From a virus (taxonomy: Duplodnaviria; Caudoviricetes): a stretch of 64,000 bases of DNA. The notes below the pieces were generated by a model. The model did no database searches. It was not told the origin of the DNA and saw only the letters and a program-made list of their open reading frames with translations. The DNA lies in the IMG/VR virus record IMGVR_UViG_3300042881_004206. One strand, given 5' to 3'. Positions 32,499-36,937 of the stretch are shown piece after piece. Within the stretch, counting starts at the first letter, position 1, and every line of letters begins with the position of its first letter. A program made the position numbers and the translations under genes.

Positions 32499-33095
32499 AT
32501 GACAATTAAATCATCAGGCGCACTATCCATATCAGAAATAAACGCCGAATTTGGTCTTGGTACCAATTTGGGTGCATACCGTGGTGTCACTTGGTATACG
32601 GATGCTGGCGGTAGTGGAACCTTTGCGTCAACTGATTTGGCTATGAGTGCTTTTTATGGTAAAAGCAAAAATCCTGCTGGCGGTACAACAGGAGAGCCTT
32701 ACTCTGGTTCAGCTTATGGTGATTTGTGGACAGGTGGATTCCCAGCTAATCCACCAAGAATTCAGTTGGTATTTTATTCAAATGGAACATGGAACGGCGT
32801 AGCTCTTTTGTCCGGCCAAACTTATTCGGGAAATTGGTTTACGCCGACCACTTCTGGCATAGGTTCAAGTTATTCTATACGATTTACAAGAACTACTACT
32901 TACGGTTTTAATGGAACATCCACAGCATCGACTGGTTTCTTAGCACTAAACTCAAATCCAGCAATTACTGTAGAAAGAACTACTACTGGAAACGGACTTT
33001 ATGCTGCTCTATATACGATTGAAATTAGAAATTCTTCTGGAACTATAGTAAGTACCTCAACAAATGTTGAGTTATCAGCAGAAGTTTCAGTTTAA
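32499..33095 (+). CDS. Probable virion/fibre-associated protein
   Basis: M.I.SSGALSISEINAEFG N-terminus typical of fibre/adhesin proteins; Gly/Ser/Thr-rich; late promoter. Confidence 0.65.
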   Translation: MTIKSSGALSISEINAEFGLGTNLGAYRGVTWYTDAGGSGTFASTDLAMSAFYGKSKNPAGGTTGEPYSGSAYGDLWTGGFPANPPRIQLVFYSNGTWNGVALLSGQTYSGNWFTPTTSGIGSSYSIRFTRTTTYGFNGTSTASTGFLALNSNPAITVERTTTGNGLYAALYTIEIRNSSGTIVSTSTNVELSAEVSV

Positions 33096-33110
33096 TTACC
33101 AAAATTAGTA

Positions 33111-33139
33111 TTGACAAAAATTAATTTGTAATGTATAAT
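33111..33139 (+). promoter_or_regulatory. sigma70 promoter TTGACA-17-TATAAT (drives small ORF and tmRNA)
   Basis: Perfect consensus. Confidence 0.9.
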
Positions 33140-33145
33140 GTGTGT

Positions 33146-33337
33146 ATGAACAGTTTAGAAAAAATTTGGGCAAGAGCAACTGGTCATCTGATGGGCAGTA
33201 CTGATGACGATAGACCAGATATTCCTATTCTCTCTCTGAGAGAAGCAAGAATATCGTTGTTCTTAAAAACATTTTGGGTAATAATTCATGTGATTACATG
33301 TTTCTTTATTATCGCAAATGTGATTCATCATTGGTAA
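33146..33337 (+). CDS. Small membrane protein (leaderless)
   Basis: ATG 6 nt after the -10 box; C-terminal TM. Confidence 0.7.
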   Translation: MNSLEKIWARATGHLMGSTDDDRPDIPILSLREARISLFLKTFWVIIHVITCFFIIANVIHHW

Positions 33338-33645
33338 GAATATTGCTGTATGAAACAAAGAGAAAAGTGTTCTGGACGTGGGTTCGACTCCCACCTGGTC
33401 CACCATAAGTTGATTTGCAGACCGTGCCACTTCTTGTAAAAAGAATCGTATTGCAGGACGGAATCAACTTATGATGGGCCAGTCATGGTATCGACAGGGC
33501 AAAGAGTAACAGAGTGGACAGCACGGTAGGCGATGACCGTAAATCAAGCAAATCAAGTAAATGCAAACGACGAAAAGTTCGCATTGGCTGCCTAATTAAA
33601 GGCGCCTAGGGTTCGGTGGGTTCCTCGTAACAGAATACCCACCCA
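33338..33645 (+). ncRNA. ssrA: Circularly permuted (two-piece) tmRNA; tag (A)ANDEKFALAA
   Basis: T-arm and ACCA end (33378-33405) precede the 5' GGGCCAG (33476); acceptor stem has G3.U70; tag frame 33563-33595; outer ends approximate. Confidence 0.93.
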
Positions 33646-33669
33646 TTTTCAACCTAACGGAGAAAAAAT

Positions 33670-33873
33670 ATGACTTCACCTGCTTACAGGGTTGGTATTA
33701 CACACACAGATGCAGAATGCACAAAACTTGGATGGGGCGTATACAAACTGAGAGAAGCACCGGAAGGTTCAAACGGTTATTATATGCTAATCAAAGCTTT
33801 TGAAGAAGAAACCGAAGCGAGAGAAAATTTAGCTCATCTACTTCAATTGGCACAAGAAGAAAAACCCTTCTAA
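33670..33873 (+). CDS. Hypothetical protein
   Basis: GGAG SD. Confidence 0.7.
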   Translation: MTSPAYRVGITHTDAECTKLGWGVYKLREAPEGSNGYYMLIKAFEEETEARENLAHLLQLAQEEKPF

Positions 33874-33910
33874 TCTTGTTCAACTACGGGTAATTATACC
33901 CACAAAAAAT

Positions 33911-34402
33911 ATGATTAAAAAATTAATACACGCAATGATCGTGTTTACCATGATTTTCTCTCATGGTTTCACACACGCAAGTCTATCTGATATTTCATCA
34001 AAAGTGTCTAAAGAATTTCAAAATCAATTGATGTGTCTGGCTCGAAATATCTATTTTGAAGCTGCTATGGAATCTTTTGAAGGAAAACTGGCTGTCGCAC
34101 AAGTTACAATGAATCGCACTAGACACCCTAATTTTCCAAACACCGTTTGTGATGTTGTCTATCAAAAAATTAATGGTATTCACCAGTTTAGTTGGGTAGG
34201 TGAGGGCGTTAAGAAAATTGTAAACAGTCGAGCATGGGAAGACAGCCTATTAATTGCCAGGAAAGCCTTGACAGAACATAAAGTACATGATACACTCTAC
34301 AGAACAAAAGCAATGTATTTTCACAACACAACGGTAAATCCGGAATGGAATTTGAAATATGTTGTACAAATAGGTAATCATTTATTTTATGCGAGACACT
34401 AA
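33911..34402 (+). CDS. SleB/cell-wall hydrolase 2 family protein
   Basis: CLARNIYFEA...GKLAVAQVTMNR...CDVVYQ...QFSW...YFH...IGNHLFY. Confidence 0.92.
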   Translation: MIKKLIHAMIVFTMIFSHGFTHASLSDISSKVSKEFQNQLMCLARNIYFEAAMESFEGKLAVAQVTMNRTRHPNFPNTVCDVVYQKINGIHQFSWVGEGVKKIVNSRAWEDSLLIARKALTEHKVHDTLYRTKAMYFHNTTVNPEWNLKYVVQIGNHLFYARH

Positions 34403-34623
34403 TGCCCACCAAAAATGAAATCAGCGAATTCAGTCAATTGATTGAAACACTTGCACAAACAAAAAATATGCCTCACATGGATGCTATTTTGCATCACTGT
34501 GAACAAACTGGTATGGAGCTGGAACTTTGTGCCACACTCATTTCTTCTGCATTGAAAGCTAGGATTCGCGAGGAAGCGGAAGAACTCAATTTACTGAAGA
34601 GCAAATCTAAACTTCCTTTCTGA
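34402..34623 (+). CDS. 33: Late-transcription co-activator gp33
   Basis: F...IE.......MDAILHHCE....E.E....LIS..LKARI..EA..LNLL...LPF; precedes gp59. Confidence 0.85.
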   Translation: MPTKNEISEFSQLIETLAQTKNMPHMDAILHHCEQTGMELELCATLISSALKARIREEAEELNLLKSKSKLPF

Positions 34624-35234
34624 TGCAAGATACTACAGGATTTGCAGCCTATACTTTGTATCAGGCCTTAAAACTGCATTTTACTTCTGATTATGATTAC
34701 TTTAAGTACAATGGAAAAACCAATGTATCTAAAGATTCATTCATGCACAACAAAGCTAAATATTCATTTTACAAACTATCTAGAAAATATTCGCATGATG
34801 ATTTGAAAGATTTTTTTGTTGCAAATTTTATCGATAGAAATGTTTCTTGGGTTGGTGAAATAACTGGACCTGAAGGTGAAGAAACATACAAAAAATGGCA
34901 AAAAAGAATTCAGGGGTTGACATATCAATTTGAACAGAACATAATTCAATTAATGGACTCAGTATCTGATCCTAATGAACTACTGATTGTTAAAAATGGC
35001 CAGTATCCTAAACTACTTGTTCGAACACTTGAAAATGACATAACTATCGAAACTTTAGTTATACTGAACGACATAATGAATTTTTTTCCTATGTGGGAAA
35101 AGAAAATACAAGATACAATTGTTTGGCCAGATTATAGAAAGCGTATCGTAAAGTATTCACCATTTTTAATCTACGACAAAAAGAAATTCAAAAATATTCT
35201 ACTGGAAAGTATTAAAGAACATGAACAAACCTAA
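34623..35234 (+). CDS. 59: Helicase loader gp59
   Basis: YQALKLHF..DYDYFKYNGK...F.KLSRKY...FFVANF. Confidence 0.9.
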   Translation: MQDTTGFAAYTLYQALKLHFTSDYDYFKYNGKTNVSKDSFMHNKAKYSFYKLSRKYSHDDLKDFFVANFIDRNVSWVGEITGPEGEETYKKWQKRIQGLTYQFEQNIIQLMDSVSDPNELLIVKNGQYPKLLVRTLENDITIETLVILNDIMNFFPMWEKKIQDTIVWPDYRKRIVKYSPFLIYDKKKFKNILLESIKEHEQT

Positions 35235-35712
35235 AATTTCAGTCATTTATTTGGACATGGACGGTGTTATCGCAAATTTTATTAAGCGGTATGAAGAATT
35301 GTTTGGTATGAAACCGGAAAGAGCAGATAAATCTGGCAAGTTCAATCGACAATTTGATATGTTCATACATGAGAAAAACTTTCAGACACTGGATTTGATG
35401 CCTGATGCATCTAAACTTTTAGAGTTTCTCCGAAAGGCACCTGTACCTACTCAAATTTTATCTTCTACGGCTCGTGAGGATAGACATGATGAAATTTCAA
35501 AACAAAAAATGGTTTGGCTGCAAACTCATGGTATTACATTTAAACCTAATTTTGTTCCAGGTAAGAAACTGAAAAAGAATTTTGCGAAACCTGACGCATT
35601 AATTATTGATGATACTGAAAGTATTATAGATGATTGGCGAAATGCTGGTGGAATTGCAATTTGGCACAAAGATGCAGAAACCACTATAACACAACTCAAA
35701 ATGTACATTTGA
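35221..35712 (+). CDS. HAD-family 5'(3')-deoxyribonucleotidase
   Basis: YLDMDGVIA, ILSS, K..W, LIIDD...W..AGGIAI. Confidence 0.9.
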   Translation: MNKPKISVIYLDMDGVIANFIKRYEELFGMKPERADKSGKFNRQFDMFIHEKNFQTLDLMPDASKLLEFLRKAPVPTQILSSTAREDRHDEISKQKMVWLQTHGITFKPNFVPGKKLKKNFAKPDALIIDDTESIIDDWRNAGGIAIWHKDAETTITQLKMYI

Positions 35713-35717
35713 ATGTG

Positions 35718-35725
35718 CATAAATA
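35718..35725 (+). promoter_or_regulatory. T4-type late promoter CATAAATA
   Basis: 30 nt upstream of ORF 35756. Confidence 0.55.
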
Positions 35726-35755
35726 AGGTATTAGAACTTTTATTTTAGACTAAAA

Positions 35756-35953
35756 ATGCTTAATCCTATTGACGCAGCAATCGAAGCAGTAGTCGCATCA
35801 AAAATTGGTAAAGACCACCCTTCAGCCGGAGAACTGGTTTCTCGGTATAAAGGTGTTGCTGCATCCTTACAATGCAATGGTTCCAGAATGGATCTGGAAC
35901 AATTTCAAAAAATGATGCAGGATTTGATGCAAGAACTACATTCAATTAGATAA
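35756..35953 (+). CDS. Hypothetical protein
   Basis: ORF after late promoter. Confidence 0.55.
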   Translation: MLNPIDAAIEAVVASKIGKDHPSAGELVSRYKGVAASLQCNGSRMDLEQFQKMMQDLMQELHSIR

Positions 35954-35971
35954 AATATACCGTTTTAATTG

Positions 35972-36000
35972 TTGACATAGGATAAAACCTATGTTATACT
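35972..36000 (+). promoter_or_regulatory. sigma70 promoter TTGACA-17-TATACT for gp32
   Basis: Direct motif match. Confidence 0.85.
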
Positions 36001-36064
36001 AAGATTTCGTTATGAATAATGTGGATAATCCGTTTATACTCCGTTTATACAAGAAAGGTAATTT

Positions 36065-36937
36065 ATGAGCTCATTTGCAAACCTCAAACGCCAATCTGGC
36101 AACCTCGATAAGCTGACCAAAGCAATCGAAGCCCTTAACTCCTCAGAGGGCACAGAGAGTCGAGATAATTTCTGGCGCCCCGAAGTCGATAAAGCCGGTA
36201 ACGGTATGGCGACCATTCGTTTTCTTCCTGCATCACCTGGCGATGGTGATGATTCTCTACCTTGGGTCAAGGTATTCTCTCATGGTTTCCAGGGTCCTGG
36301 TGGCTGGTTGATTGATAACTGCCTGACAACCAAGAGCCAACAATGTCCTGTGTGTGAACACAATAACAAGTTGTGGAACTCAGGTATTGAAGCCAACAAG
36401 GAAATCGTCCGTAAACAAAAGCGTAAGCTAAACTACATTGCTAATGTGTATATTGTTTCGGATCCTAAGCATCCCGAGAACGAAGGGCAAGTTAAACTGT
36501 TCAAGTTCGGTAAGAAAATCTTTGATAAGATTACTGAAGCAATGAATCCTGCTTTCGAAGATGAAACTGCAATTAATCCTTTTGATTTCTGGAAAGGTGC
36601 AAACTTCAAGCTGAAGATTCGTAAGGTAGAAGGTTATCAGAATTACGATAAGTCTGAATTCGAATCGCCTTCCGCATTGTCTAATGATGATGACGAACTT
36701 GAAAAAATCTGGAAGCAAGAACATACTCTCAAGGATCTTGTTGCTGACAAGGAATTCAAGTCTTATGATGAACTAAAGACTCGTCTTGATAAAGTTCTTG
36801 GTCTGAATGGTGAAACTGCACCAGTTAAGACTACTGTTGAACAACTGAAGTCTGCTCCAAAGAAAGATGTTGAACCTCCTTGGGAAGATTCATCTGATGA
36901 AGATATGGCTTACTTTAGTAAGTTGGCAGAAGAATAA
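36065..36937 (+). CDS. 32: Single-stranded DNA-binding protein gp32
   Basis: FWRPEVDKAGNG.A.IRFLP, HGFQGPGGW, CPVCE, GANFKLKIRKV.GY.NYD; acidic tail. Confidence 0.97.
   Translation: MSSFANLKRQSGNLDKLTKAIEALNSSEGTESRDNFWRPEVDKAGNGMATIRFLPASPGDGDDSLPWVKVFSHGFQGPGGWLIDNCLTTKSQQCPVCEHNNKLWNSGIEANKEIVRKQKRKLNYIANVYIVSDPKHPENEGQVKLFKFGKKIFDKITEAMNPAFEDETAINPFDFWKGANFKLKIRKVEGYQNYDKSEFESPSALSNDDDELEKIWKQEHTLKDLVADKEFKSYDELKTRLDKVLGLNGETAPVKTTVEQLKSAPKKDVEPPWEDSSDEDMAYFSKLAEE

What the first reader, a model, noticed from the sequence alone, without database searches (positions are those of the whole stretch)
33338..33645. Phage-encoded circularly permuted (two-piece) tmRNA
Seen: the 3' part of the tRNA-like domain comes first (T-arm GTGGGTTCGACTCCCAC 33378-33394, then CTGGTCC-A-CCA 33395-33405), and the 5' part follows at 33476 (GGGCCAG...TCGAC). 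GGGCCAG pairs with CTGGTCC, including G3.U70, the AlaRS identity element. The 70-nt intervening segment closes with a 12-bp stem (CATAAGTTGATT 33404-33415 / AATCAACTTATG 33462-33473). The two pieces also pair through helix 2 (CAGGGCA 33495-33501 / TGTTCTG 33368-33374; ACAGCA 33518-33523 / TGCTGT 33344-33349). A resume context TAAAT-GCA opens the tag ANDEKFALAA* (33563-33595). A perfect sigma70 promoter lies upstream. Known: two-piece tmRNAs occur in alphaproteobacteria, some cyanobacteria and a Rhodocyclales-type betaproteobacterial lineage, and the phage tmRNAs I know are mostly one-piece. Inference: the phage supplies its own ribosome-rescue RNA, matured by host RNase P/3' trimming and using host SmpB. 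Standard tRNA and one-piece tmRNA scans can miss this gene.
Basis: partly seen in the sequence, partly recalled or inferred. Interest (0 to 1): 0.9.

Follow-up and report, generated by a model that had tools for sequence, protein, structure and literature searches.

The report
Two-piece tmRNA gene in lake phage
A T4-like lake phage carries a complete, rearranged ("two-piece") gene for tmRNA, the RNA that frees stalled ribosomes. The call is right, but such phage genes are already described and are common in aquatic phages, so it is a new member of a known kind.

Summary
ARAGORN calls a permuted tmRNA with tag ANDEKFALAA. Rfam tmRNA_permuted scores 138.5 bits (cut-off 47) and beta_tmRNA 136.2 bits (cut-off 84) over the full model length. 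Fifty viral homologues show strong covariation in every helix, and G3.U70 is kept in 51 of 51.

The window is part of a 156.6-kb T4-like (Kyanoviridae-like) virus record. The same DNA occurs in lake and freshwater metagenomes from more than ten studies. The phage has no SmpB, RNase P RNA or integrase, so dependence on host factors is a fair inference.

The novelty was overrated. Two-piece tmRNAs are published for phage Melnitz, and a survey found 53 unique ones in phage genomes. I also found them in pelagimyophages HTVC008M and Mosig. This scan has noted phage two-piece tmRNAs many times on other DNA.

What is specific here:
- It is beta-type, whereas the cultured marine relatives are alpha-type.
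- Its nearest cellular relatives are three small, low-GC genomes of the GTDB order that holds Accumulibacter.
- Its 70-nt excised spacer is a stem-closed hairpin. The 46-nt core recurs in 11 other viral contigs, inside tmRNA genes with different stems and tags. Function of the core: unknown.

The parts
33111..33139 (+). Sigma-70-type (early-type) promoter, TTGACA-17 nt-TATAAT, 12 of 12 matches. It is the probable start of the transcript that carries the small ORF and the pre-tmRNA.
   Evidence: No other promoter-like site on the + strand was found between it and the tmRNA.
33146..33337 (+). 63-codon ORF with a hydrophobic C-terminal segment, between the promoter and the tmRNA. Its ATG lies 7 nt after the -10 hexamer, so it may be leaderless. 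Its stop codon lies 7 nt before the tmRNA outer helix.
   Evidence: Weak PHROG hit: phrog_1679, E 3.3e-5. An ORF with a similar C-terminus lies upstream of the tmRNA in L057.
33344..33405 (+). Acceptor piece. It holds the outer-helix strand 33344-33349, the helix 2a strand 33368-33374, the T arm 33378-33394, the acceptor 3' strand 33395-33401, discriminator A 33402 and an encoded CCA 33403-33405.
   Evidence: CM alignments, ARAGORN, covariation.
33406..33475 (+). Intervening segment (IVS) of 70 nt, predicted to be excised. A 13-bp basal stem (33404-33416 / 33461-33473) closes a 46-nt conserved structured core (about 33417-33460). It holds no ORF.
   Evidence: Fold at -21.8 kcal/mol, z -2.9. 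The basal stem covaries in 51 genes and in the 9-member core family. The core recurs in 11 other viral contigs inside tmRNA genes.
33476..33645 (+). Coding piece. It holds the acceptor 5' strand 33476-33482 (G1 is the predicted RNase P site), the helix 2a strand 33495-33501, the outer-helix strand 33518-33523 and pseudoknot PK1 at 33524-33546. The resume codon GCA is at 33563, and the tag ORF runs 33563-33595. The 3' hairpin is 33615-33621 / 33637-33643.
   Evidence: PK1 covariation. The energy fold recovers the 3' hairpin.
33563..33595 (+). Tag reading frame: ANDEKFALAA plus the stop codon TAA.
   Evidence: ARAGORN. The identical tag occurs in 8 other viral genes, and near-identical ANDExFALAA tags occur in most of the family and in cellular beta-type tmRNAs.

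Best explanation
The locus is a functional, beta-type, circularly permuted ssrA gene carried by a lytic T4-like freshwater myovirus.

Inferred steps:
1. It is transcribed early from the sigma-70-type promoter at 33111-33139, together with a small ORF.
2. The precursor folds so that the acceptor stem continues into a long spacer hairpin.
3. Host RNase P cuts 5' of G33476.
4. Host nucleases trim the upstream piece back to the encoded CCA at 33405, which releases the 70-nt spacer.
5. The 62-66-nt acceptor piece and the roughly 170-nt coding piece stay paired through the acceptor stem and helix 2.
6. Host AlaRS charges the RNA through G3.U70, and host SmpB and EF-Tu deliver it to stalled ribosomes.
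7. Translation resumes at GCA 33563 and adds ANDEKFALAA, a canonical degradation tag ending in ALAA.

Shown here: the gene's anatomy, its family membership, the conservation of its pairings and tag, and its phage context. Inferred only: transcription, processing, charging and tagging. The benefit is probably to keep ribosomes free during infection, when message breakdown creates many stop-less mRNAs.
For: - ARAGORN reports a permuted tmRNA with a tag.
- RF04321 scores 138.5 bits against a cut-off of 47. RF01850 scores 136.2 bits against 84, over model positions 1-331.
- On 51 sequences, 90.4% of cells are paired against 78.6% in shuffles. The covariation score is 0.338 against 0.138 (0 of 500 shuffles reach it). 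Slid controls give 41-51% paired.
- G3.U70 is kept in 51 of 51.
- Both PK1 stems covary.
- The tag is conserved across the family.
- The genome is a 156.6-kb T4-like phage, 92% complete by CheckV.
- It has no SmpB, integrase or RNase P RNA.
- The stretch with its flanks is held at 70% or more of its sampled words in 14 lake, freshwater and aquaculture metagenome runs.
- Metatranscriptome contigs of close relatives cover only the two mature parts. None covers the spacer core or the flanks.
- Cultured relatives Melnitz, Mosig and HTVC008M also carry permuted tmRNAs (PMC9004378).
Against: - There is no direct evidence of expression, processing, alanylation or tagging for this phage.
- The RNA contigs come from mixed relatives and cannot show RNA ends.
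- The middle part of helix 2 is an A/G-rich internal loop that does not form the pairs of the Rfam models (marked v).
- The terminal terminator hairpin of the beta model is missing.
- The host is unknown, so compatibility with its SmpB is assumed.
Confidence: 0.85

Rival explanations
1. The RNA is a decoy, not a rescuer. It binds host SmpB, AlaRS or ribosomes to shut down or redirect host trans-translation, as proposed for the TLD-only molecule of mycobacteriophage DS6A.
For: The phage has no SmpB of its own, so it must compete for the host's. A TLD-only phage tmRNA that inhibits tmRNA is on record (PMC4131195, PMC11915505).
Against: The full tag frame, the resume context, PK1 and the stop codon are present. 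The tag is conserved at the amino-acid level across about 100 viral genes. That is not expected of a pure decoy.
Confidence: 0.07
2. The main selected product is the excised spacer RNA. On this reading the tmRNA gene serves chiefly as a processing scaffold that releases a small structured RNA, or in relatives a small mRNA.
For: The 46-nt spacer core is conserved, with compensatory changes, in 11 other viral contigs whose tmRNA genes have different acceptor stems, T arms and tags. Spacer identity and mature-part identity disagree: window against L113 gives 89% for the spacer and 76.5% for the mature parts, while window against L029 gives 56% and 90%. In all 10 relatives found with 220-248-nt spacers, one forward ORF of 61-75 codons with a Shine-Dalgarno-like start fills the spacer.
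Against: The mature parts are themselves strongly conserved and covarying, so they are under selection. Spacer RNA was absent from the RNA contigs. No function or known family matches the core. The two readings are not exclusive.
Confidence: 0.06
3. The gene is captured host DNA, an assembly chimera, or a gene fragment left by integration into a host ssrA gene.
For: tmRNA genes are frequent integration sites, and fragments occur in prophages (PMC9004378, PMC4383910).
Against: The gene is complete. It sits between phage genes (PhoH and a nuclease upstream; a gp33-like regulator, gp59 and gp32 downstream) in a 156.6-kb T4-like genome. No integrase was found. The 801-nt stretch with its flanks recurs in many independent metagenomes.
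Confidence: 0.02

Closest known systems
Two-piece tmRNA of Methylophilales phage Melnitz and of Pelagibacter myophages HTVC008M and Mosig (Buchholz et al. 2022, PMC9004378)
   Same: A permuted ssrA in a T4-like aquatic myovirus of the Kyanoviridae type. The gp6 protein is about 39% identical. The gene lies downstream of an early-type promoter and upstream of the gp33-like late-transcription regulator. RF04321 scores 91-113 bits in those phages.
   Different: Those genes are alpha-type (RF01849 is the best model), and Melnitz has a glutamine riboswitch next to the gene. The window's gene is beta-type, has no riboswitch, comes from fresh water, and shares no blastn-detectable similarity with deposited phage genomes.
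Cellular beta-type two-piece tmRNA (Rfam RF01850; Rhodocyclaceae such as Accumulibacter and Thauera; Sharkady and Williams 2004, as cited in PMC9004378)
   Same: The same permutation and the same layout: outer helix, helix 2a, PK1, tag, and a 3' hairpin with a conserved loop. The tag is nearly the same (ANDERFALAA against ANDEKFALAA).
   Different: The cellular spacers are short: 4 nt in Accumulibacter and about 25-43 nt in others. The cellular genes are GC-rich and end in a terminator hairpin that the phage gene lacks. The phage spacer is 70 nt with a conserved core.
Beta-type tmRNAs of three unnamed small, low-GC genomes (G066, G176, G177; 1.7-2.3 Mb) in the GTDB order of Accumulibacter
   Same: These are the nearest cellular sequences: about 80% identity over 131 nt and 90% over 77 nt. 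PK1 and the 3' loop are the same. G066 and G176 also share the (A/T)AAG...CTT(A/T)TGAT flanks that close the spacer.
   Different: Their spacers are plain hairpins of about 30 nt. They have their own -10 box and a strong terminator. They are chromosomal.
Caulobacter two-piece tmRNA (Keiler, Shapiro and Williams 2000, as cited in PMC9004378)
   Same: It is the experimentally shown model: one precursor is cut into an acceptor piece and a coding piece that act together in tagging.
   Different: It belongs to the alpha lineage, is cellular, and has a different pseudoknot set.
One-piece phage tmRNAs (mycobacteriophage Bxz1 group, Bacillus phage G; PMC4131195)
   Same: Phage-borne ssrA in large phages that also carry many tRNAs.
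   Different: They have the standard gene order. The window's gene fails the standard model RF00023.

Membership tests
Permuted (two-piece) tmRNA, Rfam RF04321 | Covariance-model score at or above the curated gathering score | tested here: met
   138.5 bits against 47, model positions 1-213 of 213
Permuted (two-piece) tmRNA, Rfam RF04321 | Permuted gene order: the 3' half of the tRNA-like domain (T arm, acceptor 3' strand, CCA) lies upstream of the 5' half | tested here: met
   CCA at 33403-33405 and G1 at 33476
Permuted (two-piece) tmRNA, Rfam RF04321 | Alanine identity element G3.U70 in a 7-bp acceptor stem | tested here: met
   G33478.U33399 in the window. The pair is U.G in 51 of 51 homologues, while positions 4-6 covary.
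Permuted (two-piece) tmRNA, Rfam RF04321 | Tag reading frame with a resume codon, a hydrophobic C-terminus and a stop codon | tested here: met
   GCA resume codon and tag ANDEKFALAA*. The tag is conserved across the viral family.
Permuted (two-piece) tmRNA, Rfam RF04321 | The helices that hold the two pieces together are kept by compensatory change | tested here: met
   The outer helix has 5 of 6 pairs and helix 2a has 4 of 7 pairs with changes on both sides. They are 97.7% and 99.1% paired.
Permuted (two-piece) tmRNA, Rfam RF04321 | The precursor is cut into two RNAs that are alanylated, bind SmpB and tag proteins | not testable with these tools
   Only assembled RNA contigs of relatives were available. 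They cover the mature parts and not the spacer core, which is suggestive but not decisive.
Beta-type two-piece tmRNA, Rfam RF01850 | Score above the gathering score and higher than the sister models | tested here: met
   Beta scores 136.2 bits against 84. Alpha scores 73.2 bits against 50. Cyano scores 38.9 bits against 70 and so fails.
Beta-type two-piece tmRNA, Rfam RF01850 | Lineage-specific elements: the PK1 hairpin after helix 2 and a 3' hairpin with a conserved CCUyGUAAC..AA loop | tested here: met
   Both are aligned. PK1 covaries.
Beta-type two-piece tmRNA, Rfam RF01850 | Terminal stem-loop (terminator) of the model, and full pairing of the middle part of helix 2 | tested here: not met
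   The terminal hairpin is deleted, and the middle helix shows non-standard pairs. These are peripheral to function, but they mark the phage genes as a divergent branch.
Standard one-piece tmRNA, Rfam RF00023 | Score at or above the gathering score with the standard gene order | tested here: not met
   The best match scores 25.6 bits against 47 and is split in two.

The most novel reading that the evidence does not exclude
The stem-closed spacer of this freshwater-phage tmRNA lineage is an exchangeable cargo slot. In this window it holds a 46-nt conserved structured RNA with a role of its own once RNase P and 3' trimming release it. That role could be a small regulatory RNA, a decoy RNA or a processing guide. 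In relatives the same slot holds small protein genes.
Probability: 0.2. Interest if true: 0.6.

Novelty: new member of a known kind. Interest (0 to 1): 0.3.

Why it matters
It adds a well-documented beta-type example to the known set of phage two-piece tmRNAs. It also shows that this gene form is widespread in lake phages, not only in marine pelagiphage relatives. That supports the view that large aquatic phages routinely bring their own ribosome-rescue RNA while relying on host SmpB.

For annotation, the practical point is that the one-piece model misses these genes, while ARAGORN and RF04321 find them.

The part that could matter more is the spacer. It is hypervariable, appears to be exchanged between genes, is closed by a conserved stem, and holds either a conserved small structured RNA (as here) or small ORFs (in relatives). 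This suggests that a supposedly discarded piece of a stable-RNA precursor is being used. Other reports of this scan have already raised the point, and it is not proven here.

Tried and rejected
- **blastn against deposited phages:** searching the 360-nt gene gave no match, so relatives had to be found by pattern scan.
- **Riboswitch:** a glutamine riboswitch like Melnitz's was looked for and is absent, with no Rfam hit at E up to 1 in 32900-34000.
- **Phage-encoded helpers:** SmpB, integrase and RNase P RNA are all absent.
- **3' hairpin:** MAFFT misaligned it, so its pair counts (31-34% paired) are an alignment artefact. By eye the stem covaries (GGTGGGT/ACCCACC against GATAGGT/ACCTATC and GGTTGGT/ACCAACC).
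- **3' pseudoknot:** I could not settle a pseudoknot between the CTAGGG box and the 3' loop, and I make no claim for one.
- **Naming the cell genomes:** Polynucleobacter-like identity is only my guess from genome size, GC content and habitat.
- **RNA contigs:** two contigs end at the CCA followed by poly-A. That part of the RNA is shared with many tmRNAs, so I do not count it as proof of processing.
- **Neutral drift of the spacer:** pure drift was considered and judged insufficient, because spacer identity and mature-part identity are incongruent.

Full report
**1. Is it there?**

Yes.
- The T arm is GTGGG-TTCGACT-CCCAC at 33378-33394.
- The acceptor 3' strand CTGGTCC is at 33395-33401, then discriminator A and CCA, ending at 33405.
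- GGGCCAG lies at 33476-33482. It pairs with the acceptor 3' strand, including a G.U pair at position 3:70.
- The helix 2 pairings are 33368-33374 with 33495-33501 and 33344-33349 with 33518-33523.
- The perfect 12-bp stem is 33404-33415 with 33462-33473.
- The frame GCA...TAA at 33563-33595 encodes ANDEKFALAA.

The detectors agree.
- ARAGORN calls one permuted tmRNA in the window with exactly this tag.
- Rfam gives tmRNA_permuted (RF04321) 138.5 bits against a cut-off of 47.
- Rfam gives beta_tmRNA (RF01850) 136.2 bits against a cut-off of 84, over the whole model.
- A plain energy fold of 33340-33650 recovers the outer helix, helix 2a, the T arm, the acceptor stem, the spacer hairpin and the 3' hairpin.

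The perfect promoter is real: TTGACA, 17 nt, TATAAT at 33111-33139. It lies 205 nt upstream of the first paired base. Between it and the tmRNA lies a 63-codon ORF (33146-33337). Its ATG sits 7 nt after the -10 box and its stop codon sits 7 nt before the tmRNA.

**2. What is the surrounding DNA?**

The window is part of an IMG/VR virus record of 156,624 bases, 92% complete by CheckV.
- It encodes baseplate wedge and hub proteins, PhoH, gp59, gp32 and a gp33-like late-transcription regulator.
- Its gp6 protein is about 39% identical to those of Pelagibacter phages HTVC008M and Mosig and of the OM43 phage Melnitz. It is 30-39% identical to those of cyanomyophages.
- The genome also carries 22 tRNA genes in one cluster.
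- It has no SmpB, no tyrosine integrase and no RNase P RNA.
- The 801-nt stretch with its flanks is held at 70% or more of its sampled words in 14 lake, freshwater or aquaculture metagenome runs, from more than ten studies.

So this is a lytic-type, T4-like freshwater myovirus. It is not a prophage or a host fragment.

**3. Do the pairings covary?**

- Of these, 105 sequences are unique, and ARAGORN of them permuted tmRNAs.
- Most tags have the form ANDExFALAA, and eight are identical to the window's.
- Many of the genes are 70-80% identical to the window's over about 300 nt.

I counted pairs on a MAFFT alignment of the window plus 50 of these genes, using the structure named from the window.
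- 90.4% of cells are paired, against 78.6% in shuffles.
- The covariation score is 0.338, against 0.138 in shuffles. None of 500 shuffles reached it.
- Controls with the partner slid by 1-3 columns give only 41-51% paired.
- The outer helix, helix 2a, the acceptor stem and the basal stem of the spacer each have several pairs with changes on both sides.
- The G.U pair at position 3:70 is invariant in 51 of 51, while acceptor positions 4-6 vary in a compensatory way.

A small H-type pseudoknot (PK1) is also supported. Its stems are 33524-33526 with 33537-33539, and 33534-33536 with 33544-33546. It is 83% paired against 62% in shuffles, and 0 of 500 shuffles reach its covariation score.

The 3' hairpin (33615-33621 with 33637-33643) was misaligned by MAFFT. 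It covaries by eye.

**4. Which lineage does it belong to?**

The beta model scores far above the others. Alpha scores 73.2 bits and cyano scores 38.9 bits, which is below its cut-off. The viral relatives L029, L043 and L113 are beta-type too, at 118-128 bits. Melnitz, HTVC008M and Mosig are alpha-type.

Among cells, the pattern scan and a model search gave these results.
- Beta-type genes occur in Rhodocyclaceae such as Accumulibacter and Thauera, with tag ANDERFALAA.
- In an even sample of the order, 4 of 151 genomes have one.
- Three small, low-GC genomes (G066, G176, G177; 1.7-2.3 Mb) are the closest cellular relatives. The GC content around their tmRNA genes is 36-44%.
- Against the window they show about 80% identity over 131 nt and 90% over 77 nt.
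- In G066 and G176 the spacer is closed by the same (A/T)AAG...CTT(A/T)TGAT flanks as in the phages.

So the permutation is the beta (Dechloromonas) type, not an independent event. The phage branch looks nearest to that of small freshwater-type betaproteobacteria. I could not name these genomes.

**5. How does it most likely work?**

The precursor probably starts at the early-type promoter, or is read through from upstream, and includes the small ORF. In the fold, the acceptor stem is extended by a 13-bp stem. A 2x2-nt internal loop separates the two stems. The 13-bp stem pairs the last two bases of the CCA with the UG of the UGAU leader.

This resembles a pre-tRNA whose leader and trailer pair with each other.
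- RNase P would cut 5' of G33476.
- Endo- and exonucleases would trim the upstream piece back to the encoded CCA.
- The two pieces would stay joined by the acceptor stem, helix 2a and the outer helix.
- Charging by AlaRS, delivery by SmpB and EF-Tu, and tagging with ANDEKFALAA would follow from established tmRNA biology.

These steps are inferred, not shown.

Freshwater metatranscriptome contigs of close relatives lie only on 33334-33423 and 33451-33705. None lies on the spacer core or on the flanking genes. Two contigs end at the CCA followed by poly-A. This fits processing. However, the contigs come from mixed organisms and cannot define RNA ends.

**6. What about the spacer?**

Among 106 genes, the spacer cores fall into 62 families, while the basal stem is conserved. 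Spacer similarity and mature-part similarity disagree.

| Compared with the window | Spacer core identity | Mature-part identity |
|---|---|---|
| L113 | 89% | 76.5% |
| L029 | about 56% (near random) | 90% |

A scan for the window's core found it in 13 viral contigs.
- In 12 of them it lies in the spacer of a permuted tmRNA gene. One of the 12, L282, may be a record of the window's own genome or a near copy.
- These genes have different acceptor stems, T arms and tags, for example ANAANDEVFALAA and ANDAFYGEDRLAA.
- The core hairpin shows compensatory changes.

A scan for longer spacers (gap of 230-260 nt) found 10 genes. In every one, a single forward ORF of 61-75 codons fills the spacer. A Shine-Dalgarno-like AAGGA lies within the basal stem.

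This reproduces what earlier reports of this scan said about the lineage. The window has the short form without a gene. Whether its conserved core does anything beyond guiding processing is unknown.

**7. How does it compare with what is known, and is it novel?**

Phage-encoded two-piece tmRNAs are in the literature.
- Buchholz et al. 2022 (PMC9004378) describe one in Melnitz.
- They also report 53 unique two-piece tmRNAs among 18,146 phage genomes. Fifty of these come from marine or aquatic phages.
- In the same paper, 17 of 47 Melnitz-like contigs carried one.
- The 2025 tmRNA database lists 79 unique phage sequences (PMC11915505).

My own scan shows well over a hundred in IMG/VR. The notes of this scan mention the theme in hundreds of other genomes. 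I found no paper in the held library that describes a beta-type example in freshwater T4-like phages, or the spacer's behaviour. That library is incomplete.

**8. Verdict**

The observation and the identification are correct. The mechanism is the established one and remains to be shown for this phage. The finding is a new member of a known kind, so I score it modestly.

Noticed in passing
window 33406-33475; L113, L077, L024, L277-L279, L282-L286: The 46-nt spacer core (begins GCAGACCGTGC) recurs in 11 other viral contigs inside tmRNA genes, leaving out L282, which may be the window's own genome or a near copy. Their acceptor stems, T arms and tags differ. Spacer identity and mature-part identity are incongruent, which points to exchange of modules between phage tmRNA genes.
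   Followed up: partly
L287-L296: In all 10 relatives found with 220-248-nt spacers, one forward ORF of 61-75 codons fills the spacer. It starts just after an AAGGA motif that is part of the basal stem. At least six unrelated proteins are represented.
   Followed up: partly
L043, L026, L037/L064/L068 spacers: Some spacers contain a T-arm-like GGGTTCGAxTCC hairpin flanked by a short stem. This is a tRNA-like minihelix inside the excised segment and may be an extra processing signal.
   Followed up: no
90 nt upstream of the tmRNA in about 100 viral loci: Upstream contexts fall into four recurring classes. One is a sigma-70-like TTGACA/TATAAT pair ending about 8-10 nt before the gene. Another is a TAAATA(A) box like T4-type late promoters. 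A third is a tRNA gene abutting the tmRNA (L050, L089, L108, L113). The fourth is a tiny hydrophobic ORF that ends just before it (L033, L041, L047, L053, L103, L106, and the window).
   Followed up: no
window 33131-33337: The ATG at 33146 lies exactly 7 nt after the perfect -10 box and has no Shine-Dalgarno sequence. The 63-codon membrane-type ORF may therefore be translated from a leaderless mRNA that continues into the pre-tmRNA.
   Followed up: no
window 33350-33367 and 33502-33517: Both strands between the outer helix and helix 2a are A/G-rich and cannot form Watson-Crick pairs, yet they are highly conserved in the viral family. A second module type in relatives replaces the 5' strand with a self-contained hairpin (CCTTC...GAAGG).
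   Followed up: no
L280:1277-1400: One viral tmRNA gene with the same spacer core has an odd T arm (CCCGG-GGCGGTA-CCGGG) that lacks the GTTCGA loop. ARAGORN does not call it.
   Followed up: no
G066 (L244), G176 (L297), G177 (L298): Three small, low-GC cellular genomes in the GTDB order of Accumulibacter carry beta-type two-piece tmRNAs with roughly 30-nt spacers. In G066 and G176 the spacer is closed by the same flank motif as in the phages. They are candidate donor or host lineages.
   Followed up: partly
window 34402-36937: The gene order is a gp33-like late regulator, then gp59, an NT5C-like nucleotidase and gp32, as in T4. The tmRNA lies about 750 nt upstream of the gp33-like gene, like ssrA in Melnitz.
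   Followed up: no
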